Positions 3,620 through 62,760 of a stretch of DNA of 64,000 nucleotides are shown here, one piece after another. The notes under the pieces are model-generated. The model saw nothing but the letters and a program-made list of their open reading frames with translations. It ran no database searches and had not been told where the DNA came from. Location: contig JACPDF010000022.1 of NCBI GenBank assembly GCA_016184145.1, positions 1,542 to 65,541 of the forward strand, written 5' to 3'. The position numbers and the translations under genes were made by a program. Numbering within the stretch: the first letter of the stretch is position 1; each line of letters begins with the position of its first letter. The DNA comes from Candidatus Woesearchaeota archaeon. GTDB lineage: Archaea > Nanobdellota > Nanobdellia > Woesearchaeales > GW2011-AR4.

Positions 3620-3640
3620 GACAAAGAAAAAATTGCTGCA

Positions 3641-3880: not shown

Positions 3881-3993
3881 GGCAACAATTAGGTTTTCAA
3901 TAAATAAGCGATAATTCCTTAGCCAATAATACTAACATAATAAAATACAACAATTAATAAATAAAAATAATAATTCTTATTGCAAATATTAGA

Positions 3994-6092: not shown

Positions 6093-6304
6093 TTTTTAAG
6101 TTATAAACTGAAACCAAAAAAGTTTAGGGATAAAAATATAAATAAATGCATAAATAAGCTTTCTGGTTAATTGATTTTATATGCCTATCAGTTCACGAAA
6201 ACACTACTTTTTAGTGGTATAAAATAGAAAGATTTAAAAAGCCTATGCTGCACTAAAAGCGTTTAAATTGGCTGGGAAATCGTTAATCACTCAGGGAGTT
6301 AAGA

Positions 6305-38901: not shown

Positions 38902-39951
38902 TTATTGTTTTTCCTCTTCGCTTTCCCCCTTTTCTTCCATTGAGGCATCTAAAAGGTCTTTTGGCTCTTCTTCTGTTTCATTCACTTCTCTTTTTTGTTT
39001 TTCTGCAACTTCTTTGCCGCTTTCCGCTTCCTCGCCCTCTTCTTTTGGAGGGTGCAGCATTCTCTCTACTTTCCTGTCAATTATTTTTTCCATATCTTTG
39101 CTTACCTGTATGCCTTTGCCCTTGAATTTGGGCTTTTTCTTCTCTTCTTCTTTTTCTTCCAGGATTTTTTCATCTTCTTCTTTCATTCCCTTTATTCTTT
39201 CCTTTTCTTTTTCCTGCTCTTCTTCAGAAGGCTCGTCCACAACTTCAAGGCTCCCAAGCTTTTCCTTGTATTCCATTATTTCAGGATTTTCTTCTTCCAA
39301 GCTTTCTGCCACTTTATTTTCTGATTCTTTTTCGTTTTCAAGCTTATCCAAAGAATCTATCTGCTCCTTTATTCTTTCGTCTGTCTGCTCTTCTTCCATT
39401 GCCTTTCTTCTCTGCTCTTCCTTAATCGATTCTATTTCCTTTTCTTTTTCCTCTATGGCTCTTGCAATGCTCTGGAAGTCCTGGAACTGCTCCCTCAAAT
39501 TTTCTTGAGGCAGGTCAAAATATTCAAAGAATTTCTGGGTAAGCTTAATCAGATTCGTGCGGCCGTGCTTCTGCCTCGTTATGTAGCCCATCTCTTCAAG
39601 CTCCTTCAGATGGTCGTAAGCCTTGTTTGTTCTTATCCTTATTAAGTCTGACTGCTTTATTGGATACTTGAATGCTATTACAGCCAAAGTTTCCATTATT
39701 GTCCTGCTCAACTCTGTTTCCGTCACTATATTTCTTACTAAAGGAAGAAACTGCTCTCTTACAGTCAATTTCCAGAAATTGCCTTCATTTATGAGCATGG
39801 TGCTTGAATTCTTCTCGTGATATTCTTTCTTTAATTCCTCTAATGCTGCTTGCACTTCATCTTCCTTAGCCTTGGCTAATTTTGACAGTTCTTCCACGCT
39901 CATCTTCCTGCCTGAAGAAAAAAGCAATGCATCCAGTTTATTCTTGAGCAT
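38902..39951 (-). CDS. scpB: Segregation and condensation protein B (ScpB) with a long acidic C-terminal extension
   Basis: Tandem winged helices (LDALLFSSGRKMSVEEL...; TLAVIAFKYPIKQSDLIRIR...YITRQKHGRTNLI), then an E/K-rich tail of about 170 aa. Antisense ORFs 38995..39508 are rejected. Confidence 0.7.
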   Translation of the reverse strand: MLKNKLDALLFSSGRKMSVEELSKLAKAKEDEVQAALEELKKEYHEKNSSTMLINEGNFWKLTVREQFLPLVRNIVTETELSRTIMETLAVIAFKYPIKQSDLIRIRTNKAYDHLKELEEMGYITRQKHGRTNLIKLTQKFFEYFDLPQENLREQFQDFQSIARAIEEKEKEIESIKEEQRRKAMEEEQTDERIKEQIDSLDKLENEKESENKVAESLEEENPEIMEYKEKLGSLEVVDEPSEEEQEKEKERIKGMKEEDEKILEEKEEEKKKPKFKGKGIQVSKDMEKIIDRKVERMLHPPKEEGEEAESGKEVAEKQKREVNETEEEPKDLLDASMEEKGESEEEKQ

Positions 39952-40775: not shown

Positions 40776-42542
40776 TTATCTTCTCCAAATCAGTACAATG
40801 TTCAGAACAACAGAAAGAAATACCAAAAACATAAGAATAAGGTTTTTTGCCTTTTCAGTTGTCGACTCATAGACTATGCCATAATTGACGGCATTATTCG
40901 TTATTTTGTTTTTTATTCCATCATCAATATTAATTTCTTTTGCTTCCAATTCCTCTGGATTGTTATTTTCATCCTGATTGTTTTTAACAACTATGTCTTT
41001 TGTTATCTCATTGTTTGTTTTCTGGCCATTTTTATTTAATACAACTTTAAATTTGTAATTTCCCGGCTGCATGTTTTCCACCATATTGCTCAGTTCCACA
41101 ACCTGCAGCGAGTTTCTATTCAAGGTAAACTCTTTCATATTTTCTTCCCTTTCACCGGAATATGATTTTGAGCCCCTGTAAACATAGCTCCATAATTTTA
41201 TGTCCATATCCTCATCATTATTGTTGTCCAGAACTATTTTTGCGCTGAATTTTTTGTTAACATCAACAACTTCGTTAAAATCTTTCAATTCAAAATCAAA
41301 GCCTTTTGCTGCTAATTTTTTGCTTTCTATTATTTTTACATCGCACATCGAATCTGTGAGATCATCTATTCTGATTTCTTCTTCGTCCTGGGAATCCAGG
41401 CCTTCTGCCTTAATCGTGTAATCATCATTGTCAAATTTCCCATCGCAGTTAGGGTCTATTTGTACAGGAATTGTCAAAGAATAATTTGTATACTTTGATT
41501 CCAAGCCGGTTCTTGACTGCTTGCTTACCCTGTTGCCATTATTGTCTTCTATCCACACTGCAATACTCTCCTTGTTGGTGTTGCCCTTATAAGCGTTAAG
41601 CCTTACTCTTATTATCTGGCCGAACTTTGCCTGTTTGTCATTTCCAAGATCAAGCACATTTTCTATGTTTATTGATGATTTCTCATCCAATGGCTTTCCT
41701 TTTATTGTTATTATCTGCATGTCGAAATTATTTTCTATGTTTGCGTCATCGCATCCAGTTGTTATATTGGAATCCAAAATGTAAGATTTGCCTTCATCAA
41801 GATTTGGGGTGTATTCTGATGAGGTTTTTTGTGTTGTTATGGATTCGTTAGTAAATGGCTCGTATTCCCTTACTAGCTTTCCGTTAAGATCCTCTATCTT
41901 TGCCCTCATTGTAAAGTTAGTTGTTGTTCCGGATATCTTTGAAGCCCTTATTTTGAATGTAAAATCCGATGAGTTGTCAAACAAAGTCTTCGAGAGGATG
42001 AAATTTACCGCATAATCACATCCTTCATTTATTATGGCACTGCCATCATTGGGAAATCCTGGCGTGGGGTTTGACTTATGCAAAGAGCCGTTTAGGACAG
42101 CCCAGCTCAAGCCATCTGTAGTTGAATTATAATTTTTAACATCAACCAAATTTCCATTACTATCATACAAATAAAATGCTTCTCCGCTGTTGCTCAATCC
42201 ATTCCCTATAGAACTATCGTCAACATAAAGCCTTACAGCATCTGAACTTACATTAAAGTTGTTATAAACCCTTGTTGAGCCATCTGCTATTATTGCGAAG
42301 CCGTATGCAGGTATTACTGTTCCTTCCTTATTGTATAATCCCCCTTCTATTGTGTCATTGTCATTATTATCCCCGATAATCCAGTTGCTTGCATTTATGC
42401 CTGCGCTTTCATTGTTGTACAGCTCTATCCACTCATTTAGGCTTTCATCTGCTACCGGATCTGCCATTATTTCATTTATCATTAAGGCATCGGATATGCC
42501 AATAGACAATAAAAAAGCCAATAAAAGGAATAAAAATCCCAT
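40776..42542 (-). CDS. Secreted lamin-tail-domain (LTD) surface protein with C-terminal TM anchor
   Basis: Signal peptide, LTD pattern MINEIMADPVADESLNEWIELYNNESAGINASNWIIGDN, Asn/Asp-rich beta repeats and a C-terminal hydrophobic anchor plus RR. Confidence 0.65.
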   Translation of the reverse strand: MGFLFLLLAFLLSIGISDALMINEIMADPVADESLNEWIELYNNESAGINASNWIIGDNNDNDTIEGGLYNKEGTVIPAYGFAIIADGSTRVYNNFNVSSDAVRLYVDDSSIGNGLSNSGEAFYLYDSNGNLVDVKNYNSTTDGLSWAVLNGSLHKSNPTPGFPNDGSAIINEGCDYAVNFILSKTLFDNSSDFTFKIRASKISGTTTNFTMRAKIEDLNGKLVREYEPFTNESITTQKTSSEYTPNLDEGKSYILDSNITTGCDDANIENNFDMQIITIKGKPLDEKSSINIENVLDLGNDKQAKFGQIIRVRLNAYKGNTNKESIAVWIEDNNGNRVSKQSRTGLESKYTNYSLTIPVQIDPNCDGKFDNDDYTIKAEGLDSQDEEEIRIDDLTDSMCDVKIIESKKLAAKGFDFELKDFNEVVDVNKKFSAKIVLDNNNDEDMDIKLWSYVYRGSKSYSGEREENMKEFTLNRNSLQVVELSNMVENMQPGNYKFKVVLNKNGQKTNNEITKDIVVKNNQDENNNPEELEAKEINIDDGIKNKITNNAVNYGIVYESTTEKAKNLILMFLVFLSVVLNIVLIWRR

Positions 42543-44424: not shown

Positions 44425-45882
44425 TTGTTTAATATGCAGAGCAAAATTACAAGAATAATTGCTGTTTTTCTCATTTTTGCTGTATTGCTTGGAATAATGC
44501 AGTTTACAGTACCTTACATTATCGGGTTTGACGGCTATTATAACATAAAGGTTGCGGAGATAATAAAAGAAGAAGGCTTTGTAAAAGAAGGCATAGCTCC
44601 TGAAAACACAATATTGGCAGATAATTATGCGGACATACAGGTTTTGTTCAGGATTTTACTGATACCGTTTACATTCCTTGGGCTTGAGCTTGGGGCAAAA
44701 ATAGCTGCCATTTTGTTTGGAGCAATAGCATTTACTGTATTTTTCTGGTTTTTGACTGAGAACAGGATAAGGCATGCTCTTTTTTGGTCGGTGCTTTACT
44801 TATTTACATCCGAGGCGTTAATGTACAGGCTCATGCTGCCGAGGCAGATGCCTTTGGTAATTTCTTTGCTGTTATTAACAATTCATTTTCTGCAGAAAAG
44901 AAAATACGTTTTTTTGTTTTTTACAATGCTTGCTCATGTTTTATTGCACAGCAGCTTTGTTTTCCAGTTCATTATAATTATTTTTTATCTGATTTTAGAA
45001 AAAATAATTTCAAAAGAATTTAACTATAAAATTATTTTATATCCGATTATTGGAGCCGTAGCCGGGTTGATTTTGAATCCTCACTTTCCAAATAGTGTTA
45101 TTATGTCGTATATGCAGATTTTCAAGGTAAATTTAGTTGGAAATTTATACAATGTTGAATGGAAGGCTTGGACATTTAGCGAATTCATAAAAAACAACAT
45201 TCTCGTCTTAGCATATTTTATTGTTATTGTTATTGCCATTTTTAAAACTAGGAAAATAAATAAAAATAAATTATTTTTTCTCCTGTTAGCGTTGTTTTTC
45301 TTTATCTATACAATTTTATCAAGAAGGATGCAGGAATATCTTGTGCCATTTTCAATAATAGCGCTAGCATTAATTTTGGATGATTATATTCCAATATTTG
45401 ACAGAAGCAGGCTATTTAGCAAATTTAAATACGCAGCAATAATCTTCCTGATTATAGTTGTGGGAATAAACTTCAGCTTATTAAGAGAAGATATAAGAAA
45501 TAACACCTTTTTGCATAATTTTAACAAATGCGCGGGTTGGATGAAGGATAATATCCCGGAGAATTCCTTGGTATTTGTAAATGCCTATGCTTTCCCTTAC
45601 CTGTTTTTTGAGAATAGTGATGCAAGGTACACCCATGGAATAGACTTAACATATTCTTATCTTTATGATGATGAAAGCTTTGAGAGGTACATGGGAATTT
45701 TGCAAGGGACTCTTAAATCAGATGCTGATTATATAATTAAAGACTATAATCCTGACTATGTGTTCTCTGGAAAGGTAAAACAGGATGTGCAGCTATTCAA
45801 CTATATTGTAGCGCACAAAGAGAATTATAAGGCTGTGTACGAGGATGAATGGTGCGCGGTCCTAAAGGCCAAGCAGATATAG
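44425..45882 (+). CDS. Polytopic membrane protein, GT-C-fold glycosyltransferase-like (PMT/ArnT-like)
   Basis: More than 10 TM helices with an early loop, GFDGYYNIKVAEII. No AglB WWDYG motif. The assignment is tentative. Confidence 0.4.
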   Translation: MFNMQSKITRIIAVFLIFAVLLGIMQFTVPYIIGFDGYYNIKVAEIIKEEGFVKEGIAPENTILADNYADIQVLFRILLIPFTFLGLELGAKIAAILFGAIAFTVFFWFLTENRIRHALFWSVLYLFTSEALMYRLMLPRQMPLVISLLLLTIHFLQKRKYVFLFFTMLAHVLLHSSFVFQFIIIIFYLILEKIISKEFNYKIILYPIIGAVAGLILNPHFPNSVIMSYMQIFKVNLVGNLYNVEWKAWTFSEFIKNNILVLAYFIVIVIAIFKTRKINKNKLFFLLLALFFFIYTILSRRMQEYLVPFSIIALALILDDYIPIFDRSRLFSKFKYAAIIFLIIVVGINFSLLREDIRNNTFLHNFNKCAGWMKDNIPENSLVFVNAYAFPYLFFENSDARYTHGIDLTYSYLYDDESFERYMGILQGTLKSDADYIIKDYNPDYVFSGKVKQDVQLFNYIVAHKENYKAVYEDEWCAVLKAKQI

Positions 45883-48098: not shown

Positions 48099-48566
48099 TT
48101 GCATATGGATGAGGCAGTTTCTTTCCTGAAAGAATGGTTCATAAGATTTCTTGAGAATAGGGATTTGGTAAGGAAGAATATTGCAAGCATTGATGGCAAA
48201 GAAGGATTTGATTTCGTTGTAAATTATAGGGATAAAGCTGTAAATTTTTTAATCATGCCAATTTTAGAGGGCAATAGCCTAGAAAAAATAAATAATAACG
48301 AAAATTTCGGCATTATCACCCTTAACAATTCCCAGAATATAAGATTCTCATATAACTGCTGGAAAAAAATAGCTGAAATGAGGTTTTTGAGCCTGTATTT
48401 CGTAAATCCATTTTCTAATACAGATAAAGCATGGATACTTTGCCCTTATGCGCATGACAGGATATGCGACAAAAATTCCCTGTGGCTGGGGCTTAAAGCA
48501 ATGGCTGAGATGGTAGAGCCCATTAATTATGAAAAAGTCATGGAAAGGCTCAAACTAGAAAGATAA
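48099..48566 (+). CDS. Hypothetical protein (155 aa)
   Basis: ORF downstream of PCNA. No motif recognised. Confidence 0.4.
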   Translation: MHMDEAVSFLKEWFIRFLENRDLVRKNIASIDGKEGFDFVVNYRDKAVNFLIMPILEGNSLEKINNNENFGIITLNNSQNIRFSYNCWKKIAEMRFLSLYFVNPFSNTDKAWILCPYAHDRICDKNSLWLGLKAMAEMVEPINYEKVMERLKLER

Positions 48567-49143
48567 GCAGCTGGCCTACAAAGCCGCTGACTATTGGTAC
48601 TATTAAGTTATCGTCCAATTCATCTACTAATGTTTCTGTTATTGTTGCCACAAAGGCCATTATAATTGGTATGTATATGTTTATTGTAAAGGCCAAGCTT
48701 ATCAATACTGCCACTATAAGATTTGTTACTAGCTCTGATGCAAAGCCTACAACAGTCTTGTTCTTGAATAATAAGGTGGTGCCGTATTTTTTCCCTGCGA
48801 TTGCCGCAGCAACATCGCCAAAAGTTGTCATTAACAATGCTGCAAGGGCTATGGCAGTGTCAAATACTGCAAACGCTATTATTGTTGAGGAAAAGAAAAA
48901 AATAACGCCGTAAACCCTGTATTGCTCCTTAGGCCTTATGAACTGGTGGAAAAAAGGGAGCTTGAAATTCAATTCTAAGCGGAAATACTCCAATACTAGG
49001 AAGAATATAAGCAGCCCAACAAGGAACAATAAAGCAACCTGCTGCCCTGCCTGATTCTTTATTGCAAAGAAAAGGACAAGTACTATTAAAATAGTTATGT
49101 GGATTATTTTCCTGCCTATCTCATGAAAAAACTGCCAAGGCAT
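48550..49143 (-). CDS. CTP-transferase-family membrane protein (CarS/dolichol kinase-like), second paralog
   Basis: Polytopic protein whose motif TFGDVAAAIAGKKYG resembles the cytidylyltransferase signature. Confidence 0.5.
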   Translation of the reverse strand: MPWQFFHEIGRKIIHITILIVLVLFFAIKNQAGQQVALLFLVGLLIFFLVLEYFRLELNFKLPFFHQFIRPKEQYRVYGVIFFFSSTIIAFAVFDTAIALAALLMTTFGDVAAAIAGKKYGTTLLFKNKTVVGFASELVTNLIVAVLISLAFTINIYIPIIMAFVATITETLVDELDDNLIVPIVSGFVGQLLIFLV

Positions 49144-49742: not shown

Positions 49743-49873
49743 ATAAGATAATTGTTTAGTTCTTCCTGATACACTGGGAAATGCTTTGCATTTCCGGTGT
49801 CCCAAAAATCTACGATTTTTGAGGATAGCAAACACACATCTATCTGGAAAGAAATATTTTGTGGGGGGTAAAA

Positions 49874-50878
49874 ATGCCTGTTTATATTAAAGGAGTCGGA
49901 ATGACGAAATTTGGCGTGCATACGAAAACCAGCCAGGAGCTGTGCTATGAGGCTGCCCTTGAGGCTATTCAAGATGCGGATATCCAGCCAGAAGACATAA
50001 ATGCCATTGTTATTTCCCGAGGGGATTCTGCAGTTGATGGAGAGAGGCAAAGACTGTTTCCTTCCGTAATAAGCAGCATTCTTCAGAAAGAAAACATCCC
50101 AATAATCCAAGTAACGGCTGCCTGCAGCGGCGGAGGGGCTGCATTGTGGGACGCTATCCATTCAGGCTATGATAATGTGCTGATAATTGGAGTAGAAAAA
50201 TTAACTCCCACTCCAACAAAAATAGTGACTGATAATCTGATGATGGCATCTGAAAGAATATACGAGCAGACCGAGGGCCTTAACTTCCCAGCCCAGAACG
50301 CTTTGATTGCCCAGCAATACATGATGAAATACAATGCTACAGAAGACGATCTTGCATTAGTGGCTTTGAAGAACCACGACAATGCTTTTCTAAACCCCAA
50401 GGCAAGGTTTATAGAGATTATCGGATCTTCATTGTATGCTGACAGGCTCCCTGCATTTGAAAGCAGGGATATGACATCATGGGAAGCTACGAAGCTTGCT
50501 GCAGCAGAGGCATATAAACGAGCAGGGATAACGCCAAAGGATGTTAATTTTGCAGAGCTGCATGATGCATTTACATCTGTGGAGCTAATGACATATGAAG
50601 ACCTTGGCTTTGCGGAAAATGGAAAAGGAAAGGTTCTGATAAAAAAGGGGATTACGAAAATTAATGGAGAATTGCCAGTAAATGCATCCGGCGGCTTAAA
50701 GGCGAAAGGGCATCCGGTAAGCGCCACAGGCGTTTCCCAGATTTATGAAATAGTAAGCCAAATGAGAAAACGAGCAGAAAAAAGGCAGCTAAACAATGTA
50801 AAAATCGGCTTGGCGCATAATGTTGGAGGTACCGGCAGCACTGCAACAGTCCACATATTAAAAAACATAGGTGGTTAA
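49874..50878 (+). CDS. Thiolase-family protein (acetyl-CoA acetyltransferase / SCP-x-like), paralog 1
   Basis: VYIKGVGMTKFG...TAACSGGGAALWDA (active-site Cys) ...NASGGLKAKGHPVSATGVSQIYE. A GGGGGT Shine-Dalgarno-like sequence precedes the ATG. Confidence 0.8.
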   Translation: MPVYIKGVGMTKFGVHTKTSQELCYEAALEAIQDADIQPEDINAIVISRGDSAVDGERQRLFPSVISSILQKENIPIIQVTAACSGGGAALWDAIHSGYDNVLIIGVEKLTPTPTKIVTDNLMMASERIYEQTEGLNFPAQNALIAQQYMMKYNATEDDLALVALKNHDNAFLNPKARFIEIIGSSLYADRLPAFESRDMTSWEATKLAAAEAYKRAGITPKDVNFAELHDAFTSVELMTYEDLGFAENGKGKVLIKKGITKINGELPVNASGGLKAKGHPVSATGVSQIYEIVSQMRKRAEKRQLNNVKIGLAHNVGGTGSTATVHILKNIGG

Positions 50879-52346
50879 TGTGATAATCAGATGGGTTTCA
50901 GAAGACGGGAAGAGAAAATGGATTTATCCTGTTGAGAAGGACTTATATTCCAAGGGCAGGATAATAAAACAGGTGAGCACAAAAGCAAAGGTCATTGGTA
51001 TAACCAAGGTCAATATTCCCTCGCCATTGCACCCCATTATCCCTTATTATGTCATGCTGCTGGAAGACAAATACGGAAACAGAATGCCAAAGAAAACAAT
51101 GAGAGAATGTAAGATTGGGGACACTTATGAGGTTAAGGCTGCTACAACTGATAATGCAGTTATAATAACAAAGATAAAATATGATGTAGAGGAATATTTG
51201 AAAGAATCTCTTAAGCTAGTCCACGCTCATGAGCTTGAGGCTGCTGATAAAATTCTCATAAAACCAAGCATAATAGAGGCTGCTTATGCATACCAGGCAG
51301 TCAACACGAATCCTAAAGTTATAGATGGGCTGATAAGTTACCTCAGGGAAAAGGGCATAGAGGATATTGCAGTTGGAGAGCAGGCTATGCTTGGCAATGA
51401 TGTTATTGATGCTGCAAATAAGGCAGGAATTCTTGATGTATGCAAAAAGCACAATGTGCCTTTTATTGATTTAAGCAAAGCAGAATATGCCGAAAAAACA
51501 TCTGACGGATTCAGCTTTAGGATTGCAAAAGATGCTATGGACAGAAAGGTGATAAATGCACCAGTGGTGAAGACAAATTCCCAGATTGGGATTTCAGGAG
51601 CAATGGAGAATATGATAAGGGTTACAGACGAGAGAACCCAGAAAAAGATGTTCGAGGAGGATATAGAAAAGAGCCTGCCAAAGCTTATAAAAGCGCTCCC
51701 GGAATTTTTAACTGTGGGAGATGCTACCATAGGCCTTCATGCTCAAGGCCCTACCTCACTAGGAGAGCCTGCATTCCTGAACATGCTGTTTATCAGCAAG
51801 AATCCTGTTGCTTTGGATTCCGTATTTGCTGAAGCTGGTTTGTTTAAAATGCCCCAATACCTGAAAGAGGCTGCTGCAATAGGTTTAGGAAGCAATAATG
51901 CCAGGGATATAGAGATTGTAGGGGACGAGCTGGAAGCCATAAAGCAGCACCTAAAATACCCGGAAAAAGATGTAACTTCCCACCCCCACATAAAACTCAT
52001 AGACGGAAAGGCTGATCCTTATATCTTTAATTCTGCTTTGAAAATGACTGCTAAGCTTGTAGGCCTGCTGGGCTATGAAATGTGGGTTGCAATAGGACTT
52101 CATTTTTCAGAAGAAGAACTTGCAGGAAAAAATAGGCTGGTGGCGTATGGAAAGGATGCAATCAAGAGGACAAGAGAACTTGGAGCGAAAACAATAGCAG
52201 AGATTCCTGATGATATAGATGATATGGAGAAAATAGTGCTATTAAAGAGTGTTTTGGAAAACAAAGAAAAAAGGAATATCACGGCAGCGGATAAGCTTAA
52301 ATCAAAAATTACTAGTATCGGAGCTAAAATCAAGGGCTCATTTTAA
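50871..52346 (+). CDS. Fusion protein: N-terminal DUF35-like OB-fold (thiolase-associated) and C-terminal DUF362-like domain
   Basis: N-terminus GRIIKQVSTKAKVIGITKVNIPSP...PYYVMLLEDKYGNRM...IGDTYEV matches the DUF35 OB-fold pattern without the Zn ribbon. The C-terminal ~380 aa contain ILIKPSII...NTNPKVIDGL, INAPVVKTNSQIGISGAMENM and DATIGLHAQGP, resembling DUF362 from memory. Confidence 0.5.
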   Translation: MVNVIIRWVSEDGKRKWIYPVEKDLYSKGRIIKQVSTKAKVIGITKVNIPSPLHPIIPYYVMLLEDKYGNRMPKKTMRECKIGDTYEVKAATTDNAVIITKIKYDVEEYLKESLKLVHAHELEAADKILIKPSIIEAAYAYQAVNTNPKVIDGLISYLREKGIEDIAVGEQAMLGNDVIDAANKAGILDVCKKHNVPFIDLSKAEYAEKTSDGFSFRIAKDAMDRKVINAPVVKTNSQIGISGAMENMIRVTDERTQKKMFEEDIEKSLPKLIKALPEFLTVGDATIGLHAQGPTSLGEPAFLNMLFISKNPVALDSVFAEAGLFKMPQYLKEAAAIGLGSNNARDIEIVGDELEAIKQHLKYPEKDVTSHPHIKLIDGKADPYIFNSALKMTAKLVGLLGYEMWVAIGLHFSEEELAGKNRLVAYGKDAIKRTRELGAKTIAEIPDDIDDMEKIVLLKSVLENKEKRNITAADKLKSKITSIGAKIKGSF

Positions 52347-52365
52347 TTACAACAGGTGTTTTATT

Positions 52366-53379
52366 GTGACATACATAAAAGGTATCGGGATGACGAAATT
52401 TGATGTTGACCAGAGAAGCTCTTATGAGAGAGTATACGAATGCGTAAATGATGCCCTTGACAGCGGCAATATCGGAATAGAGAATATAGATGTTATTTTT
52501 GTTTCCAATGCCGAGGCAGAATCAAACGGGGAAAGGCAGAAACACATTGGGCCTATGATGAGCAGCATGTTCCAGAAAAAGATGCCGATAGTCACTGTGC
52601 CTGCAGGCTGTGGCGGAGGAGGCACGGCACTATGGAATGCCATTCATTACCAGAAAAACAATAAGGAAAATAATATCCTGGTTATAGGTTTTGAAAAGCT
52701 AGTTGCAAATTTATCTGAAAGGGCGACAGATGAGATGCTTATGGGTGGTGAAAGGGTATACGAGCAAAATGAAGGCGTAATATTTCCAGCCCAGAATGCA
52801 TTAGTAGCGCAGCAATACATGATGAAATACAATGCTACAGAAGACGATCTTGCATTAGTGGCTTTGAAGAACCACGACAATGCTTTTCTAAACCCCAAGG
52901 CAAGGTTTACAGACATAGAGATAGCAGGCAGCGGATTAAGCACCAGCAATTTAGCAAGTTTTGAAAGAGAAGATATGACTTCCTGGGATTCTACAGTTAC
53001 TGCTGGAAAAATAGCCTATAAGGAAGCTGGCATTAAGCCAAAAGATATTGATATAGCTGAAGTCCATGATGCATTTACTCCTGTTGAGCTGATATCTTAT
53101 GAAGACCTTGGCTTTACAGGAAAAGGAAAAGGCAAGGACCTAATAAGGGAAGGATACACAAATTTATCAGGCAAGCTTCCAGTCAATACTTCTGGCGGCT
53201 TAAAGGCAAAGGGACATCCTATAAGCGCAACAGGCGTTTCCCAGATTTATGAGCTTGTTCTGCAATTGAGAGGTCAGGCAGGGAAAAGGCAGGTTGACAA
53301 TGTAAAAATCTGCTTGGCGCATAATATAGGAGGAGCAGGCAGCACTGCAAGCGTGCATATACTGAAGAAAGTTGTTTAA
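52366..53379 (+). CDS. Thiolase-family protein, paralog 2 (probable GTG start)
   Basis: TYIKGIGMTKFD...VPAGCGGGGTALWNA...NTSGGLKAKGHPISATGVSQIYE. aggtg lies 9 nt upstream of the GTG. Confidence 0.75.
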   Translation: MTYIKGIGMTKFDVDQRSSYERVYECVNDALDSGNIGIENIDVIFVSNAEAESNGERQKHIGPMMSSMFQKKMPIVTVPAGCGGGGTALWNAIHYQKNNKENNILVIGFEKLVANLSERATDEMLMGGERVYEQNEGVIFPAQNALVAQQYMMKYNATEDDLALVALKNHDNAFLNPKARFTDIEIAGSGLSTSNLASFEREDMTSWDSTVTAGKIAYKEAGIKPKDIDIAEVHDAFTPVELISYEDLGFTGKGKGKDLIREGYTNLSGKLPVNTSGGLKAKGHPISATGVSQIYELVLQLRGQAGKRQVDNVKICLAHNIGGAGSTASVHILKKVV

Positions 53380-58067: not shown

Positions 58068-58667
58068 ATGACAGAAGAGAAGTTTTTGGTGCCTACTGAT
58101 GAATACCTTAAGTCAGGAATACACATAGGGACAAAGTACAAGACAAGGTACATGGAGAAGTTCATATACAAGACAAGGCCTGATGGATTGTCCGTATTAA
58201 ACCTGCAGAGAATTGATGAAAGGATAGCCATAGCTGCAAAATTTCTTGCCACATATAACCCTGAAGACATCCTGATTGTTGGAAGGAGGGAAAGCGCCTG
58301 GAAGCCCATAACAAAATTCGGGAAAGTTATCGGAGCAAAGGTATATGCTGGAAGATATCCTCCTGGAATTCTGACAAATCCCGGCTTGGAGGATTATATA
58401 GAAGTAAAAGTGCTGCTGGCTGTGGATGTATGGCCCGACAGGAATGCTGTCATGGACTGTGTAAAAATAGGAATACCTGTTATTGCCATATGCGACACAA
58501 ACAACCAGTCAAATAACATAGACCTGGTGATTCCCGGAAATAACAAGGGCAAAAAGAGCCTTGGGCTGTTTTTCTGGATACTTGCCAAAGAGTATCTAAA
58601 AGCAAGAGGGATAATAAAAAGCGACAAGGACTTCAAGGAAAAATTAGAGGATTTTACTGAAGAATAG
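58068..58667 (+). CDS. rps2: 30S ribosomal protein S2 (uS2, archaeal type)
   Basis: YLKSGIHIGTKYKTRYMEKFIYKTRPDGLSVLNLQ...VIAICDTNN. Confidence 0.9.
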   Translation: MTEEKFLVPTDEYLKSGIHIGTKYKTRYMEKFIYKTRPDGLSVLNLQRIDERIAIAAKFLATYNPEDILIVGRRESAWKPITKFGKVIGAKVYAGRYPPGILTNPGLEDYIEVKVLLAVDVWPDRNAVMDCVKIGIPVIAICDTNNQSNNIDLVIPGNNKGKKSLGLFFWILAKEYLKARGIIKSDKDFKEKLEDFTEE

Positions 58668-58669
58668 AC

Positions 58670-59452
58670 TTATTTTTTCTTTTCTGTTTCAAGAATAAAA
58701 TCGCAGATTTCCTTGAATATTCTTTTCTTATCGAAATCCACGCTTATCACGTGACCAGAGTTTTGGATATAAATGATTCTTTTTTCACTTATCCTTAGAG
58801 CATCATAGATAAACTGCGAGCTTTTAGGCTTTATTGTATTGTCTTTTTTTGAATGTATAATTAATGTTGGAACCTTGATGTTTTTTATTTCCTTCTTTGC
58901 AATTTTTATAAGTTTTAATGCAGATGCCATGGACTCTAGAGGAACCTGCTTGTATGCTATCCTATCCTTCAAGGCTTTTTCATCTGCAATATCGAAAAAT
59001 GCTTCTTTTCTTCCAGGATAATATCTGCCGTAGTCTTTTATTGAGTATTTTTTGAAATATTTTAAAATTGGCGTAAATTTCGCTAATGGGCTTGTATAGA
59101 AGATTGCCGGGGCTAATAGCACTAATCCCTTTATTTTATTATTCTTAATGTTGGCAGCGAGGTGCAATGAAAGCATGGCTCCAATTGACAGGCCAATTAC
59201 ATAGATTTTATCACAATTCTTATTTAGGAAATCAAAATCTTCTGTAACGGAAGAATACCAGTCCTGCCATGTGGTTTTACTTAGATCTTTTACAGAGGCG
59301 CTGTGGCCTTTGAGAAGAGGCGCAAGCACAGTATACTCCTTCGAATGCAAATAAGATGCGAGCTCTTCCATTTCCTGCGTGGAAGAAGTAAGCCCGTGCA
59401 CTAACAAACAGCCGATTTTGCCTTTTTTCTTAAATAACCTGCTGCCTTTCAT
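58670..59452 (-). CDS. Alpha/beta hydrolase (carboxylesterase/lysophospholipase-like)
   Basis: Oxyanion-hole region LLVHGLTSS and nucleophile elbow GLSIGAM (GxSxG). Confidence 0.75.
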   Translation of the reverse strand: MKGSRLFKKKGKIGCLLVHGLTSSTQEMEELASYLHSKEYTVLAPLLKGHSASVKDLSKTTWQDWYSSVTEDFDFLNKNCDKIYVIGLSIGAMLSLHLAANIKNNKIKGLVLLAPAIFYTSPLAKFTPILKYFKKYSIKDYGRYYPGRKEAFFDIADEKALKDRIAYKQVPLESMASALKLIKIAKKEIKNIKVPTLIIHSKKDNTIKPKSSQFIYDALRISEKRIIYIQNSGHVISVDFDKKRIFKEICDFILETEKKK

Positions 59453-60444
59453 CAGATTATGTCTAGAAGCTGGTCTATTGCTTCCTTAAGGTCCATCCCC
59501 TGATAGAGCACTTTGTGCGCATGGGCTATCAAAGGGGTCTCTAAACCATTATTTTTGCACAATTGGTAAACTGCTTTTGTATTTTTAATGCCTTCTGCCA
59601 CCATACCATGCATTTCTTTGTTTATCTGCGCTATACTCTTTCCTTTTGCAAGCCCTTCCCCAACAAACCTGTTTCTGCTATGGTTGCTGTAGCATGTAGC
59701 AACTAGGTCGCCAACTCCCGCCAACCCATAACAGGTTTCTCTTTTTGCCCCGAATTTCCTTGCTATAATGCTCATTTCAGAAAGGCCTAAAGTAAGGATG
59801 CTAGCTTTGGAATTATCCCCGAACCTTAGGCCGTCGCAAACCCCTATTGCTATCGCGACTATGTTTTTTATGGCGCCGCATATTTCAACCCCTGTTACAT
59901 CGTCATGAGGATAAGTCTTAAAATAAGGAGTGCAAAAAACTTTTGCCACTAATTCCCTCGTGCTTTTGTTTTCCGATGCCACTACTGTTGCTGTGGGCAG
60001 CTTAACAGCAACCTCCTCCGCATGGTTTGGCCCTGACAAAACCGCAATGCTCTTTGCCTCGGGCAATTCTTCTTCCAGCACTTTTGACATGAGCTTTCCT
60101 GTATTCTCCTCTATACCTTTGGCTACATGGACAACAATCATGCTTTTATCGATGAATCCTGAAAAAGATTTTGCAGTATGCCTTAGAAATTCCGAAGGCA
60201 CTGCGAAGACAACCATGCCAGAATTTTCAATAGCATCTTTCATTGAATGGGTTGAACTTACACTAGAGGGTATTTTGATGCCTTTAAGATATTGACCATT
60301 TTCTCTTTTTTTATTTATCTCATCAGCAAGCTCTTCTCTTCTCGCCCATAAAGAAACCTTATATCCTTTTTCTCCGAGCAGTATGGCCAAAGCTGTTCCC
60401 CAGCTTCCTGCTCCAATAACCGCAATTTTTCCTGCCTTTTTCAT
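59452..60444 (-). CDS. gpsA: NAD(P)H-dependent glycerol-3-phosphate dehydrogenase (bacterial GpsA type)
   Basis: IAVIGAGSWGTALA, GPNHAEEV, GAIKNIVAIAIG and C-terminal helical domain; 330 aa. Confidence 0.85.
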   Translation of the reverse strand: MKKAGKIAVIGAGSWGTALAILLGEKGYKVSLWARREELADEINKKRENGQYLKGIKIPSSVSSTHSMKDAIENSGMVVFAVPSEFLRHTAKSFSGFIDKSMIVVHVAKGIEENTGKLMSKVLEEELPEAKSIAVLSGPNHAEEVAVKLPTATVVASENKSTRELVAKVFCTPYFKTYPHDDVTGVEICGAIKNIVAIAIGVCDGLRFGDNSKASILTLGLSEMSIIARKFGAKRETCYGLAGVGDLVATCYSNHSRNRFVGEGLAKGKSIAQINKEMHGMVAEGIKNTKAVYQLCKNNGLETPLIAHAHKVLYQGMDLKEAIDQLLDII

Positions 60445-60446
60445 GT

Positions 60447-61078
60447 TTAATAATTATATTTCTGCCCTGACAGATTTGCTATTTCCCTCATTATACTGTC
60501 TGTTACCGACCTTAAGAGTTTTTTTGTCATTGGCTTATTGTAATACTTGTCAAAATACATCGGCTTACCGAAACTGAATGACGCTCTTTTTAATTTCGGT
60601 ATTTTTGCGCCTTTTGGTAGTATTTCAAATGTGCCTTTTATTCCTACCGGGATAACAGGAACCCTTGCCCATAAGGCTAATCTTGCCACTCCTGTCTTGC
60701 CTTTTTGGAGCTTTCCTGTCAGGTTACTATGATTGCCCCTCTCCTTAGGTATGATACGGCTGCTTTTATAGCCCCTTCGCCTTTTTCCCTGTCTATGGGA
60801 ATATAGGTTATGTATCTTTTCCATAAACTGTGCCATGTACTTTGGGTGATGCTTTCAAAATGCTCTTTTTTTGCTATGAAATAGAGTTTTTTGTTCAAGT
60901 ATGGAACTACTATAGAGCCTATCATGAAATGCTCTATGTAGCTGCAATGGTTAGGGGCAAGTATGAAGGCTTTGTCTTTAGGCAGATTCTCCAATCCCCT
61001 GATATTTTTTATCCAAAGCTTTATTATGGGCGGAACAAGATATTTCCCTATGGGTGGAGGAAAAGGCTTTATTTTCAT
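60447..61078 (-). pseudogene. Frameshifted 1-acyl-sn-glycerol-3-phosphate acyltransferase (PlsC-like) paralog
   Basis: The N-terminal part (60719..61078, APNHCSYIEH) and the C-terminal part (60447..60836, LTGKLQKGKTGVARLALWARVPVIPVGIKGTFE) lie in different frames. Compared with the intact neighbour, about 11 nt are missing just upstream of the shared tract. Confidence 0.7.
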
Positions 61079-61668
61079 AGCTTGTACCTCTGATTGGATA
61101 ATTTTGCAATTTCTGTCATTATTTTATCAGTAAGTTTTCTCAATATTTGCTTTTTTATCTCTCTTTTATAATAATTATCAAAATAGATCGGTTTTCCTAT
61201 ATTTATTACTATATTTTTTTTAAATTTTGGCATGATTTTCCCTTTAGGCATAAGCTCAAATGTGCCTTTTATTCCTACCGGGATAACAGGAACCCTTGCC
61301 CATAAGGCTAATCTTGCCACTCCTGTCTTGCCTTTTTGGAGCTTTCCTGTCAGGATGGCTTCCTGCAAAACTATTTGCCCCTCAGCTTCCCTGTCAAAAG
61401 TAATCTGCCTGCCAATTTTGAATATCCACTTAATTATTGGATTAGAAACCAGCTCTTTCTTTGCAAGATACCTAACTTCCTTTTTCCTCAGCCTCATTAA
61501 AACTGTTGAAAGGGCTATTATATCCAGATAACTTGAATGGTTTGCAGCTAAAATAAACCCTTTTTTTTGCGGAAGATTTTCCTTTCCATTGATTTTTCTT
61601 ATGAGAATCTTGCTGCATAATTTAAGAAAAGGACCGTATATAATCCATAAAATAAAATTGCTGAACAT
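61075..61668 (-). CDS. plsC: 1-acyl-sn-glycerol-3-phosphate acyltransferase (PlsC family)
   Basis: HX4D motif AANHSSYLD, FDREAEG, LQKGKTGVARLA and VPVIPVGIKG blocks. Confidence 0.8.
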   Translation of the reverse strand: MFSNFILWIIYGPFLKLCSKILIRKINGKENLPQKKGFILAANHSSYLDIIALSTVLMRLRKKEVRYLAKKELVSNPIIKWIFKIGRQITFDREAEGQIVLQEAILTGKLQKGKTGVARLALWARVPVIPVGIKGTFELMPKGKIMPKFKKNIVINIGKPIYFDNYYKREIKKQILRKLTDKIMTEIAKLSNQRYKL

Positions 61669-61731
61669 ATCATAGAAGATAGCTTGTTAATTTAAAAAGC
61701 TTATTGATATAAAAAAGAAAAAATAAAGGAC

Positions 61732-62760
61732 TTAAATGTCCTTTATGCCCGAGCTTTCCACATAGAAGCTGGCTTCCCCTTCCGGTAGGTTTGGACTATC
61801 TACTAATTTTGCAACTCTGCTGCCTTTCTTTCCTTTTCTCAAGTAGATTCTGAAAGTAGAGGCATGGCCCACTATATGGCCTCCAATTGCTGTGGTGGGG
61901 TCTCCAAAGAACATATCAGGCCTGGCCATTACCTGGTTAGTTACATAGACGCAAATATTGTTCATGTGCGCGATTTTTGCCAAATCCCGCATATGCCTGT
62001 TGATTTTCTGCTGCCTCTCTGCTAATGTGCCCCTGCCTATGTATTCAGCCCTGAAATGCGCTGTCAAAGAGTCTATAATTACCAGCTTTACGTCAAAGCC
62101 CTGTTTTTTTATCAAATCCTCAACTTTTTCTCCTAGTAATGTCTGATGGTCTGAATTATAAGCACGAGCTACTTTGATGTTTTTAAGCGCTTCTGTAGTG
62201 TCCAAGCCAACGCCTTTTGCGAGCTGTTCTATTCGCTCCGGCCTGAATGTGTTTTCTGTGTCTATGTAGACTGCTACTGCTCCAGGAAACTGCTTCTGGA
62301 CATTAACAGCAAGAATATGCCCAATCTGCGTTTTTCCACTTCCATACTCACCAAAGCACTCTGTTATTGCTCCAGTCTCAAAGCCTCCGCCCATTAAAGC
62401 ATCGAAGCTTTTGCTTCCTGTACTTAATTTCAGGACTTGCTCCCTTTTTTTGAGAACTTCTTCCCCTGACTCAAAGCCCATCTCTAGCGATGCTCTTGCA
62501 ACTGCTATGAGCTTTTTTGCTGCTGCTTCTGTCATTCCTGTTGCATCCACCATCTCTCCGGGTGTTGCAACTGCGACTGACATCAAATCCGAGTAGCCTA
62601 CAGCCTCTAATTTTTCTGCAGTGGCCGGGCCTACTCCAGGAAGATCAGAAAGCGCCTTTTCCTTGACTACTTTAGTTTCTTCCCTTAATCTTGATTTTTT
62701 CTCAACTGCTTTTTTTTCATTGTTTTGCAATGTTTCCGGTTCCATTAATACTTGTTTCAT
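61732..62760 (-). CDS. radA: DNA repair and recombination protein RadA
   Basis: N-terminal HhH ([15 protein letters not shown]), Walker [13 protein letters not shown], Walker B VVIDSL. Confidence 0.9.

What the first reader, a model, noticed from the sequence alone, without database searches (positions are those of the whole stretch)
58670..61668. Bacterial-type glycerol-3-phosphate lipid module (gpsA, two plsC copies, alpha/beta hydrolase) in an archaeal chromosome
Four contiguous minus-strand genes encode a canonical NAD(P)H G3P dehydrogenase (GpsA; GAGSWGTALA, GPNHAEEV) and two PlsC-family lysophosphatidate acyltransferases with the HX4D motif, one of which is frameshifted. Immediately downstream sits a GxSxG esterase/lysophospholipase-like hydrolase. 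Archaea normally make sn-glycerol-1-phosphate with EgsA and build ether lipids. GpsA together with PlsC would allow bacterial-type G3P ester lipid synthesis, the other side of the lipid divide. The flanking genes are unambiguously archaeal (radA, rps2). The same window also carries FabZ-like, FabG-like and thiolase genes at 49.2-56.7 kb, which could supply acyl chains.
Basis: partly seen in the sequence, partly recalled or inferred. Interest (0 to 1): 0.7.

Follow-up and report, generated by a model that had tools for sequence, protein, structure and literature searches.

The report
Bacterial-type lipid operon in a Woesearchaeote
A DPANN (Woesearchaeota) archaeal chromosome carries a conserved operon of bacterial-type genes for making glycerol-3-phosphate and attaching fatty acids to it; this trait is already reported for the group, and in this assembly both fatty-acid-attaching genes are damaged.

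Summary
On the minus strand lie plsC-A (61075-61668), plsC-B (60447-61078, frameshifted), gpsA (59452-60444) and a monoacylglycerol-lipase/Est30-like esterase (58670-59452). They sit between archaeal radA and uS2. The contig is not chimeric: composition is flat, and radA-plsC-plsC-gpsA-uS2 recurs in 27 Woesearchaeota/Nanoarchaeota species genomes.

Two corrections. Only plsC-A has H-X4-D; plsC-B has H-X4-E. Both copies, not one, lack catalytic motif III (PEGTR). plsC-A has an in-frame 54-nt gap and plsC-B a 22-nt gap. Both gaps end at the left edge of a 99-nt block that is identical between the copies. Among 226 homologues, the only full-length one without the motif is this window's plsC-A. 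dN/dS is still low, so the lesions are either very recent or assembly errors. Only the reads can decide.

GpsA without G1P dehydrogenase in Woesearchaeota was reported in 2016. PlsC in DPANN and bacterial fatty-acid and MEP genes in Woesearchaeota were reported in 2019-2024. The phenomenon is therefore known. The order-wide tandem plsC-plsC-gpsA operon is a useful refinement. It suggests phosphatidate synthesis or lysolipid re-acylation without PlsB/PlsX/PlsY, which is untested.

The parts
61075..61668 (-). plsC-A: LPLAT/AGPAT-superfamily acyltransferase, 197 aa. Motifs I (NHSSYLD), II (FDRE) and IV (VPVIPV) are present. An in-frame 54-nt deletion removes motif III (IYPEGTRS) and the preceding helix.
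   Evidence: Pfam PF01553 scores 71 bits but covers only profile positions 3-82 of 132. The protein is identical to GenBank MBI2208345.1. The 54-nt gap is seen against the 215-aa orthologue P0122/L013.
60447..61078 (-). plsC-B: second acyltransferase paralogue with H-X4-E (NHCSYIE). It is disrupted by a 22-nt deletion that removes IYPEGTRS and shifts the frame. The N-terminal ORF is 60719-61078 (119 aa, stop TGA). The C-terminal homologous part, 60447-60722, is in another frame.
   Evidence: The N-terminal ORF equals GenBank MBI2208344.1. The orthologues P0241, P0349, L008 and L010 are intact at 213-218 aa.
61256..61354 (-). 99-nt block in plsC-A that is 100% identical to 60625-60723. It encodes LTGKLQKGKTGVARLALWARVPVIPVGIKGTFE. 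The 54-nt deletion abuts its 5' (left) edge.
   Evidence: Identity is 99/99 here, against 86/99 between the two copies of the closest relative L013 and 55% outside the block.
60625..60723 (-). The same 99-nt block in plsC-B. The 22-nt deletion abuts its 5' edge. Nine independent Logan contigs start exactly 30 nt (k-1) inside its 3' end, at 60654.
59452..60444 (-). gpsA: NAD(P)H-dependent sn-glycerol-3-phosphate dehydrogenase, 330 aa, intact.
   Evidence: NF000942 scores 409 bits (cut-off 257), PF01210 199 bits and PF07479 181 bits. It aligns end to end with Coxiella GpsA 3k96, with GAGSWGTA, KNI, GDL..TC and SRNR conserved. dN/dS against L013 is 0.13.
58670..59452 (-). Alpha/beta-fold serine esterase of the bacterial monoacylglycerol-lipase / Est30 carboxylesterase family, 260 aa. 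Its start overlaps the gpsA stop.
   Evidence: PF12146 Hydrolase_4 scores 88.6 bits. Best PDB matches are 7e0n, 5xks and 3rli (thermostable monoacylglycerol lipases) and 1tqh (Est30), E 1e-30 to 1e-34. The triad positions align: GLSIG to GLSMGG, SKKDN to SKEDH, NSGHV to NSYHV. The gene is present only in the closest relatives L013 and L017.
61669..61746 (-). Intergenic region between radA and plsC-A. It holds a terminator-like hairpin plus T-run after radA (61746-61723) and an A/T-rich TTTTTAAA box about 30 nt upstream of the plsC-A ATG, which is the likely operon promoter.
   Evidence: This is inference from sequence only.
61732..62760 (-). radA, an archaeal recombinase and conserved upstream neighbour.
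   Evidence: NF003301 scores 457 bits (cut-off 259). Synteny is shown.
58068..58667 (+). rps2 (uS2, archaeal/eukaryotic type), the conserved convergent downstream neighbour.
   Evidence: TIGR01012 scores 243 bits (cut-off 211.5). Synteny is shown.

Best explanation
This is a four-gene, translationally coupled operon (plsC-A, plsC-B, gpsA, esterase) of bacterial ancestry. It has been inherited vertically within the DPANN order Woesearchaeales and sits between core archaeal genes.

How it most likely works in lineages where it is intact:
- GpsA reduces dihydroxyacetone phosphate to sn-glycerol-3-phosphate. This step is strongly supported by homology.
- The two AGPAT-superfamily paralogues transfer acyl chains to G3P and/or to lyso-glycerolipids, giving phosphatidate-type ester lipids. 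This is inferred. One paralogue may act directly on G3P, as mycobacterial PlsM does.
- The monoacylglycerol-lipase-like esterase, added in this subclade, trims or recycles acylglycerols. This is also inferred.

In this particular MAG both acyltransferase genes lack catalytic motif III. The two deletions end at the same edge of a 99-nt block that is identical between the copies. As assembled, only GpsA and the esterase are functional. The lesions are either a very recent gene-conversion/deletion event or a local assembly error.
For: -
- Operon structure: start and stop codons overlap or lie 2 nt apart.
- Archaeal host: RadA, uS2, PCNA, CCA-adding enzyme, CTP-dependent riboflavin kinase and wyosine synthesis genes are in the window.
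- The window is GenBank Candidatus Woesearchaeota DNA.
- All named proteins among the top 120 GpsA homologues (59-88% identity) are Woesearchaeota or Nanoarchaeota.
- In 27 GTDB species loci, GpsA lies beside archaeal-type uS2 in every locus. Two tandem plsC copies lie upstream in nearly all loci with enough sequence, down to 51% GpsA identity.
- Purifying selection: dN/dS is 0.08-0.19 for all four genes against L013.
- Motif III is present in 224 of 226 Woesearchaeal homologues. The only full-length exception is this window's plsC-A; the other is an atypical or partial sequence that was not examined.
- The deletions are 54 and 22 nt, and both end at the same alignment column next to the 99/99 identical block.
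- The block's 3' boundary is a branch point in 9 independent assemblies.
- A PlsC homologue is known to act on G3P: mycobacterial PlsM (PMC10593935).
Against: - No enzyme has been assayed.
- Intact orthologues score below NCBIfam's PlsC cut-off, and their second-best match is the acyltransferase domain of lysophospholipid re-acylating Aas-type enzymes.
- plsC-B has Glu in place of the catalytic-dyad Asp in this subclade.
- No PlsB/PlsX/PlsY, ACP or acetyl-CoA carboxylase was seen in the 64-kb window.
- Coleman et al. judged a membrane role for archaeal PlsC/PlsY unlikely because of their patchy distribution (PMC6431249).
- DPANN archaea are generally thought to take lipids from hosts (PMC11868695).
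- In this genome the two acyltransferases are broken as assembled.
Confidence: 0.6

Rival explanations
1. The two plsC lesions are local assembly or curation errors caused by the near-identical internal repeat. In the organism both genes are intact (about 215 and 217 aa) and the operon works as in its relatives.
For: - Both gaps end at exactly the same alignment column, at the edge of the only exact repeat in the locus.
- Among 226 homologues, this window's plsC-A is the only full-length one without motif III.
- dN/dS shows no relaxation of selection.
- Logan contigs break at the repeat. The only radA-side contig (L007) ends at 61387, 33 nt before the plsC-A junction, so no independent assembly confirms either junction.
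Against: - De Bruijn assemblers build contigs from k-mers seen in reads. The sequences on either side of each junction share no long k-mer that could cause a false join (inference).
- The branch point at the block's 3' end in 9 assemblies shows that the identical block, or at least its last 30 nt with two different continuations, really exists in the population.
- No intact allele of this population was found. The best other copies are 83-84% identical.
Confidence: 0.45
2. The operon serves salvage and remodelling rather than de novo synthesis. The acyltransferases re-acylate lysolipids taken from a (possibly bacterial) host, the esterase deacylates them, and GpsA only supplies or consumes G3P.
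For: - The second-best family match of the intact orthologues is the lysophospholipid-reacylating acyl-ACP--phospholipid O-acyltransferase domain.
- A monoacylglycerol-lipase-like esterase lies in the operon.
- No dedicated sn-1 G3P acyltransferase is present in the window.
- Published views hold that Woesearchaeia may modify lipids taken from a host (PMC11868695).
Against: - The tight, order-wide coupling of the two acyltransferases with gpsA, which makes the backbone, fits de novo backbone acylation better.
- The esterase is a late addition found in only 3 of about 30 loci.
- FabZ-like, FabG-like and thiolase genes nearby could supply acyl chains.
Confidence: 0.3
3. GpsA here works in glycerol/G3P catabolism or redox balance, as proposed for some other archaea, and has nothing to do with membranes.
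For: [quoted passage not shown]
Against: - It is the biosynthetic GpsA type, not GlpA/GlpD.
- It is translationally coupled to two glycerolipid acyltransferases in at least 24 species loci.
- No glpK or glpF lies beside it in the window.
Confidence: 0.08
4. The contig is a chimera, or the module is contaminating bacterial DNA joined to archaeal DNA.
For: None found. One related contig is labelled Candidatus Nomurabacteria (L033).
Against: - GC and GC3 of the four genes lie within the range of the other window genes, and the tetranucleotide distance z-score is -0.7 to +0.24 across 56-64 kb.
- Logan contigs from independent runs span gpsA-esterase-uS2 (L001) and radA-plsC-A (L007) with identical sequence.
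- The same order, radA-plsC-plsC-gpsA-uS2, occurs in 27 species genomes.
- L033 itself carries an archaeal-type uS2 (74% identical) next to gpsA, so it is a misbinned archaeal contig.
Confidence: 0.01

Closest known systems
Bacterial GpsA (NAD(P)H-dependent sn-glycerol-3-phosphate dehydrogenase), e.g. Coxiella burnetii 3K96 and Thermotoga maritima 1Z82
   Same: Full-length collinear alignment and the same two-domain architecture. The nucleotide-binding GxGxxG and the KNI, GDL and SRNR substrate motifs are conserved. It passes the NCBIfam subfamily cut-off.
   Different: The host is an archaeon. The protein is about 40-45% identical to the nearest bacterial clusters (Clostridium, Latescibacterota) and is equally close to GpsA of other uncultured archaea (Promethearchaeota, 'Euryarchaeota'). 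It is much more distant from the characterised archaeal enzyme of Archaeoglobus (1TXG, 124 bits).
PlsC / AGPAT (LPLAT superfamily) acyltransferases, e.g. Thermotoga maritima PlsC 5KYM
   Same: Pfam PF01553 domain. Motifs I, II and IV are present here and motif III in all orthologues. The size is about 210-218 aa, and the best solved relative is TmPlsC.
   Different: Scores fall below the TIGR00530 cut-off, even for intact orthologues. The N-terminus is short, so the long two-helix membrane anchor of TmPlsC is not matched (the alignment starts at TmPlsC residue 66). The genes are always in tandem pairs. In this subclade one paralogue has H-X4-E. In this window both copies lack motif III.
Mycobacterial PlsM/PlsB2 route to phosphatidate (PMC10593935)
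   Same: It shows that a PlsC homologue with H-X4-D can acylate G3P itself (at sn-2), so two acyltransferases can make phosphatidate without PlsX/PlsY. This is the working model for the two Woesearchaeal paralogues.
   Different: No orthology was shown. The mycobacterial partner is a PlsB-type enzyme, whereas here both are small PlsC-like proteins. The activity is untested.
Bacterial-type lipid genes reported in other archaea: Woesearchaeota GpsA (Yokobori 2016), DPANN/MGII/Asgard PlsC and PlsY (Coleman 2019, after Villanueva 2017), Woesearchaeota G3PDH, fatty-acid and MEP genes (Castelle 2021; Zhang 2024)
   Same: The same phenomenon and the same lineage: GpsA present, G1PDH not found, and PlsC homologues in metagenome bins.
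   Different: The passages of those papers that I read list gene presence. I did not find a description of the conserved radA-plsC-plsC-gpsA-uS2 operon, the paralogue pair, the H-X4-E variant or the lesions seen here (searches found nothing). The absence of such a description is not proven.
Bacillus/Geobacillus thermostable monoacylglycerol lipase (3RLI, 5XKS) and Est30 carboxylesterase (1TQH)
   Same: About 250-aa alpha/beta hydrolase with E 1e-30 to 1e-34. The Ser-Asp-His triad positions are conserved.
   Different: The substrate is unknown. It is encoded in an archaeal operon downstream of gpsA and only in a small subclade.

Membership tests
GpsA (NAD(P)H-dependent G3P dehydrogenase) | N-terminal NAD(P)-binding Rossmann domain (PF01210) with GxGxxG | tested here: met
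   PF01210 scores 199 bits (cut-off 23). GAGSWGTA lies at residues 11-18.
GpsA (NAD(P)H-dependent G3P dehydrogenase) | C-terminal substrate-binding domain (PF07479, PF20618) with the conserved Lys-Asn, Asp and Arg substrate residues | tested here: met
   PF07479 scores 181 bits and PF20618 69 bits. GAIKNIVAIA, GVGDLVATC and SRNRFVG align with the same motifs of 3k96. The role of these residues is taken from knowledge of GPD1/GpsA structures, not tested.
GpsA (NAD(P)H-dependent G3P dehydrogenase) | Score above the curated NCBIfam family cut-off | tested here: met
   NF000942 scores 409 bits against 257, and NF000940 338 against 202. It is below the cut-offs of the narrower equivalog models.
GpsA (NAD(P)H-dependent G3P dehydrogenase) | Catalyses DHAP + NAD(P)H -> sn-glycerol-3-phosphate (stereochemistry) | not testable with these tools
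   Needs an enzyme assay with chiral analysis.
[quoted passage not shown] | Motif I: H-X4-D catalytic dyad | tested here: inconclusive
   plsC-A has NHSSYLD (met). plsC-B has NHCSYIE, i.e. H-X4-E (not canonical). The same Glu is found in the orthologues L008, L010, L013 and L017.
[quoted passage not shown] | Motif III: (F/Y)PEGTR, binding of the glycerol-phosphate acceptor | tested here: not met
   It is absent from both window copies, through deletions of 54 and 22 nt. It is present in 224 of 226 homologues and in all syntenic orthologues.
[quoted passage not shown] | Motifs II (xxDR) and IV (VP(V/I)xPV) | tested here: met
   ITFDRE / IPIDRE and VPVIPVGIKG occur in both copies.
[quoted passage not shown] | Score above curated family cut-offs | tested here: inconclusive
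   Pfam PF01553 is passed (71 and 38 bits, cut-off 23). NCBIfam TIGR00530 is not: 60 and 32 bits for the window copies, and 72-100 bits for intact orthologues, against a cut-off of 102.95.
[quoted passage not shown] | Acylates the sn-2 position of 1-acyl-G3P | not testable with these tools
   Needs an enzyme assay or complementation of an E. coli plsC(ts) mutant.
Monoacylglycerol lipase / Est30 carboxylesterase family (alpha/beta hydrolase, PF12146) | Alpha/beta fold with GxSxG nucleophile and Ser-Asp-His triad | tested here: met
   PF12146 scores 88.6 bits (cut-off 27). GLSIG, D204 and H233 align with the triad positions of 7e0n and 5xks.
Monoacylglycerol lipase / Est30 carboxylesterase family (alpha/beta hydrolase, PF12146) | Hydrolyses monoacylglycerols or short-chain esters | not testable with these tools
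   The substrate cannot be read from the sequence.
Complete bacterial phosphatidate pathway (GpsA + PlsB or PlsX/PlsY + PlsC + CdsA) | A dedicated sn-1 G3P acyltransferase (PlsB or PlsX/PlsY) | tested here: not met
   None was found among about 50 window ORFs scanned with Pfam. The rest of the genome was not available.
Complete bacterial phosphatidate pathway (GpsA + PlsB or PlsX/PlsY + PlsC + CdsA) | CDP-diacylglycerol synthase (CdsA) | tested here: inconclusive
   The 197-aa ORF at 48550-49143 hits PF01148 CTP_transf_1 weakly (27 bits, cut-off 24). It has no NCBIfam hit and no PDB relative. It could equally be a polyprenol or dolichol kinase.

The most novel reading that the evidence does not exclude
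Woesearchaeales as a whole order build, or largely build, their membranes on the 'bacterial' side of the lipid divide. GpsA would supply G3P, and the two small PlsC-family paralogues of the conserved operon would act as the sn-1 (or sn-2) G3P acyltransferase and the LPA acyltransferase. That would be a minimal phosphatidate pathway without PlsB/PlsX/PlsY, fed by an ACP-independent FabZ/FabG/thiolase system.
Probability: 0.3. Interest if true: 0.75.

Novelty: already known. Interest (0 to 1): 0.33.

Why it matters
The lipid divide is the split between G1P isoprenoid ethers in archaea and G3P fatty-acyl esters in bacteria. It is central to models of early cell evolution and of the origin of eukaryotes. 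Archaea that carry bacterial-type genes are the natural test cases.

This window adds no new lineage. The synteny analysis, however, shows that plsC-plsC-gpsA is an old, conserved operon under purifying selection, embedded between radA and rps2 across Woesearchaeales. That argues against the view that such genes are sporadic and unlikely to act in membrane synthesis. It also points to specific proteins to express, namely the intact orthologues P0122 and P0241.

The paired lesions are a caution. Pathway calls made from this MAG's annotation, which names two '1-acyl-sn-glycerol-3-phosphate acyltransferases', would be wrong or unverifiable.

Tried and rejected
1. Chimeric contig. Rejected on composition, independent contigs and synteny.

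2. Confirming the deletion junctions in independent assemblies.
- Exact-product look-ups found nothing for the 197-aa ORF, the 119-aa ORF and two predicted edge-cut products of a 'middle' contig.
- A positive control, the 68-aa edge-cut product of plsC-B, was found in 9 contigs.
- The predicted middle contig would be only about 590 nt, and every Logan contig seen here was at least 988 nt. The negatives are therefore probably uninformative.

3. Two exact-pattern scans of JGI metagenome contigs, one for the plsC-A left flank and one for the shared block, found nothing.

4. Looking for an intact allele of the same population.
- The nearest other copies are 83-84% identical (P0122, P0241).
- The 90% cluster of the 119-aa fragment holds one intact 218-aa protein (P0349). 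It diverges in the C-terminal half and comes from another species.

5. Programmed frameshift in plsC-B. Rejected, because 8 conserved catalytic residues are missing, not merely out of frame.

6. Archaeal lipid genes (G1PDH, GGGPS, DGGGPS/UbiA, CarS) in the window. None were found among the ORFs scanned. That is uninformative for a 64-kb piece.

7. RNA elements. There were no Rfam hits and no tRNAs in the window. The sigma-70 promoter and terminator scan was at background level, apart from a hairpin after radA.

8. A formal GpsA/PlsC phylogeny with labelled bacterial taxa. Not done, because the large libraries return few names. Only the nearest clusters were named.

Full report
**What is there.**
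Between 58,670 and 61,668 the minus strand carries four tightly packed genes.
- The first is a 197-aa acyltransferase (61075-61668), here called plsC-A.
- The second is another acyltransferase (60447-61078), here called plsC-B. It is split into a 119-aa ORF and a C-terminal part in another frame.
- The third is a 330-aa gpsA (59452-60444).
- The fourth is a 260-aa alpha/beta hydrolase (58670-59452).

The plsC-A stop overlaps the plsC-B start (ATGA). Two bases separate plsC-B from gpsA. The gpsA stop overlaps the hydrolase start. The four genes therefore look like one operon. Its likely promoter is an A/T-rich TTTTTAAA box about 30 nt upstream of plsC-A, just after a hairpin plus T-run that follows radA (inference).

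GpsA is unambiguous.
- It hits both Pfam domains, and NCBIfam NF000942 scores 409 bits against a cut-off of 257.
- It aligns end to end with Coxiella GpsA, and the nucleotide- and substrate-binding motifs are conserved.

The hydrolase belongs to the bacterial monoacylglycerol-lipase / Est30 carboxylesterase family.
- E-values are 1e-30 to 1e-34.
- The Ser (GLSIG), Asp and His triad positions all align.

The flanks are archaeal radA and euk/arch-type uS2, and both score above curated cut-offs.

**Where it comes from, and whether the contig is sound.**
The 197-aa and 119-aa products are identical to GenBank proteins MBI2208345.1 and MBI2208344.1. Both come from a 65.5-kb contig of a Candidatus Woesearchaeota archaeon MAG.

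The rest of the window is an ordinary archaeal chromosome. It encodes PCNA, an archaeal CCA-adding enzyme, CTP-dependent riboflavin kinase, a wyosine enzyme, RNase J, aIF5B and more.

Several results argue against chimerism.
- GC, GC3 and tetranucleotide composition show no break at the module.
- Logan contigs from independent sequencing runs reproduce gpsA-esterase-uS2 and radA-plsC-A exactly.
- All named proteins among the 120 best GpsA homologues (59-88% identity) are Woesearchaeota or Nanoarchaeota.
- A scan of one genome per GTDB species returned 27 loci.

In those 27 loci, tblastn shows gpsA beside archaeal-type uS2 in every locus, down to 51% GpsA identity. Two tandem plsC copies lie upstream in nearly all loci with enough sequence. 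radA, LigT, TRAM and FabG are nearby in many loci.

The esterase occurs only in the window and its two closest relatives, L013 and L017.

One locus is labelled Nomurabacteria and several are labelled 'uncultured Methanosarcinales'. They carry the same archaeal neighbours, so they are mislabelled or misbinned.

**Two corrections to the observation.**
First, only plsC-A has the H-X4-D dyad (NHSSYLD). plsC-B has NHCSYIE, i.e. H-X4-E. The same Glu is found in the closest orthologues (L008, L010, L013, L017, P0349). More distant Woesearchaeales have H-X4-D in both copies.

Second, the apparently intact plsC-A is not intact.
- Its closest orthologue is P0122 (215 aa, 83% identical). Compared with it, plsC-A lacks 18 residues, KALKKGEVIGIYPEGTRS. 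These include motif III, which binds the acceptor.
- plsC-B lacks IYPEGTRS and is frameshifted.
- At the DNA level the gaps are 54 nt and 22 nt. Both end at the same alignment column, immediately 5' of a 99-nt block that is 99/99 identical between the two copies (61256-61354 and 60625-60723).
- Elsewhere the copies are 55% identical. In the closest relative, L013, the corresponding blocks are 86/99 identical.
- The window's block is closer to the B-type (90/99 to L013-B, 85/99 to L013-A).
- Motif III (PEGxR) is present in 224 of 226 Woesearchaeal homologues. One of the two exceptions is this window's plsC-A. The other is an atypical or partial sequence that I did not examine.
- Every syntenic locus has motif III in both copies.

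**Real lesion or artefact?**
dN/dS against L013 is 0.08-0.17 for the plsC parts. That is as low as for gpsA (0.13) and the esterase (0.19). Any inactivation is therefore very recent.

Nine Logan contigs from different runs all begin exactly 30 nt (k-1 for k = 31) inside the 3' end of the block in plsC-B. This is what a true repeat with two different continuations would produce, so the identical block is probably real.

The two 5' junctions are not confirmed.
- The only radA-side contig stops 33 nt before the plsC-A junction.
- Exact-product look-ups for the predicted intervening contig were negative. That contig would be about 590 nt, shorter than any Logan contig seen here, so these negatives carry little weight.
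- Two pattern scans of JGI metagenomes found nothing.

A false de Bruijn join is hard to picture without a shared k-mer at the junctions. On the other hand, two deletions ending at one repeat edge is the classic look of a repeat-induced error. I put real lesions at about 55% and an artefact at about 45%. Read mapping would decide.

A biological scenario exists. plsC-B first loses 22 nt. B-to-A gene conversion then follows, with its tract ending where homology ends, at the deletion, and taking 54 nt of plsC-A with it. This scenario is inference only.

**How the module most likely works.**
- Shown by homology: GpsA makes sn-G3P from DHAP, and it is the bacterial biosynthetic type.
- Its best solved relatives are Coxiella and Thermotoga GpsA (232 and 226 bits). 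Archaeoglobus GpsA scores only 124 bits.
- Its nearest clusters outside the Woesearchaeota, at 43-47% identity, are Clostridium, Latescibacterota and other uncultured archaea.
- Inferred: the two AGPAT-superfamily paralogues acylate G3P and/or lyso-lipids.

The paralogues' best solved relative is Thermotoga PlsC. Even the intact orthologues, however, score below the TIGR00530 cut-off. Their second-best match is the acyltransferase domain of lysophospholipid-reacylating enzymes. Substrate and regiochemistry are therefore open.

No PlsB/PlsX/PlsY is present in the window. Mycobacterial PlsM is a PlsC homologue that acylates G3P directly (PMC10593935). It is a precedent for two PlsC-like enzymes being enough to make phosphatidate.

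PlsC and PlsY from bacteria accept both glycerol-phosphate stereoisomers (PMC13400652). GpsA, not the acyltransferases, would therefore set the stereochemistry.

The esterase suggests acylglycerol turnover.

Several genes upstream could supply or process acyl chains, but none is diagnostic.
- a FabZ-like dehydratase
- two thiolase-domain proteins
- a FabG-like reductase
- a weak CTP_transf_1 hit

**Comparison with what is known.**
- Yokobori et al. (2016) listed Woesearchaeota as GpsA-positive and left G1PDH unmarked.
- Coleman et al. (2019) found GpsA in Woesearchaeota and PlsC in DPANN bins. They inferred transfers from Bacteria and doubted a membrane role because the distribution was patchy.
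- Castelle et al. (2021) reported bacterial G3PDH and fatty-acid genes beside MEP genes in Woesearchaeota.
- Zhang et al. (2024) reported FabG/FabI/FabZ, the MEP pathway and cyclopropane-fatty-acid synthase.
- A 2025 Black Sea study found bacterial ether- and membrane-spanning-lipid gene homologues in Woesearchaeia.

The phenomenon is therefore already known, and these very proteins are already annotated in GenBank. I did not find three things described in the passages I read:
- the order-wide plsC-plsC-gpsA operon wedged between radA and rps2
- the H-X4-E paralogue
- the paired lesions in this MAG

**Verdict.**
- Interest is about 0.33. That reflects the conserved operon as a concrete handle on an open question, and the caution about this MAG's two broken acyltransferase genes.

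Noticed in passing
L033 (LBZW01000033.1, 5,074 bp), gpsA at 2785-3771, uS2 at 3778-4380: A contig deposited as Candidatus Nomurabacteria (a CPR bacterium) carries plsC-plsC-gpsA next to an archaeal-type uS2 that is 74% identical to the window's. It is almost certainly a misbinned Woesearchaeal contig, not a bacterial source of the operon.
   Followed up: partly
L017, L018, L023-L025, L027, L029-L032, L036: Many TPA 'binchicken' MAG contigs titled 'uncultured Methanosarcinales archaeon' share the Woesearchaeal radA-plsC-plsC-gpsA-uS2 synteny. The organism label looks like a placeholder or an error.
   Followed up: no
L008/L016 3670-4677 (GCA_016180235.1, contig JACPBQ010000004.1): In this relative a 335-aa ORF with a faint LAGLIDADG_3 hit (homing-endonuclease-like) is inserted between radA and plsC-A. 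The window has only 63 nt there.
   Followed up: no
window 48550-49143 (-): A 197-aa membrane-protein-like ORF has a weak PF01148 (CdsA / dolichol-kinase family) hit and lies next to the FabZ-like gene. It has no NCBIfam or PDB match. It could be a CDP-diglyceride synthase or a polyprenol kinase.
   Followed up: partly
window 49859-53379 (+): Two thiolase-domain genes (339 and 376 aa, non-ATG starts) flank and overlap a 491-aa DUF362 ORF (50871-52346). The overlaps suggest miscalled starts or an unusual arrangement. A complete dihydrolipoyl dehydrogenase (TIGR01350, 556 bits) follows on the other strand, with no other 2-oxoacid dehydrogenase subunits nearby.
   Followed up: no
window 32436-33613 (-): There is an adjacent PAP2 phosphatase (weak undecaprenyl-diphosphatase-like hit) and a VTT/DedA-family membrane protein. 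This is a second small lipid-related gene pair in the window.
   Followed up: no
window 35983-38439 (-) and 38902-39951 (-): A bacterial-type DNA gyrase subunit A (818 aa) and an ScpB homologue are present in this archaeal chromosome. They are further examples of bacterial-like genes in the lineage.
   Followed up: no
window 4584-7534, 15857-17221, 22650-23690, 44425-45882: Several long ORFs (346-502 aa) have no Pfam hit at all. In addition, 40776-42542 encodes a 588-aa protein whose only hit is a lamin-tail domain.
   Followed up: no
L013 562-746 vs 1215-1399; L010 5227-5342 vs 5877-5992: In relatives too, the motif III-IV region or the C-terminal region of the two plsC paralogues is much more alike at the DNA level (76-87%) than the rest of the genes (about 52%). 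This hints at recurrent gene conversion between the tandem copies across the clade.
   Followed up: partly
window 1-64000: No tRNA gene and no Rfam family at gathering threshold were found anywhere in 64 kb.
   Followed up: yes
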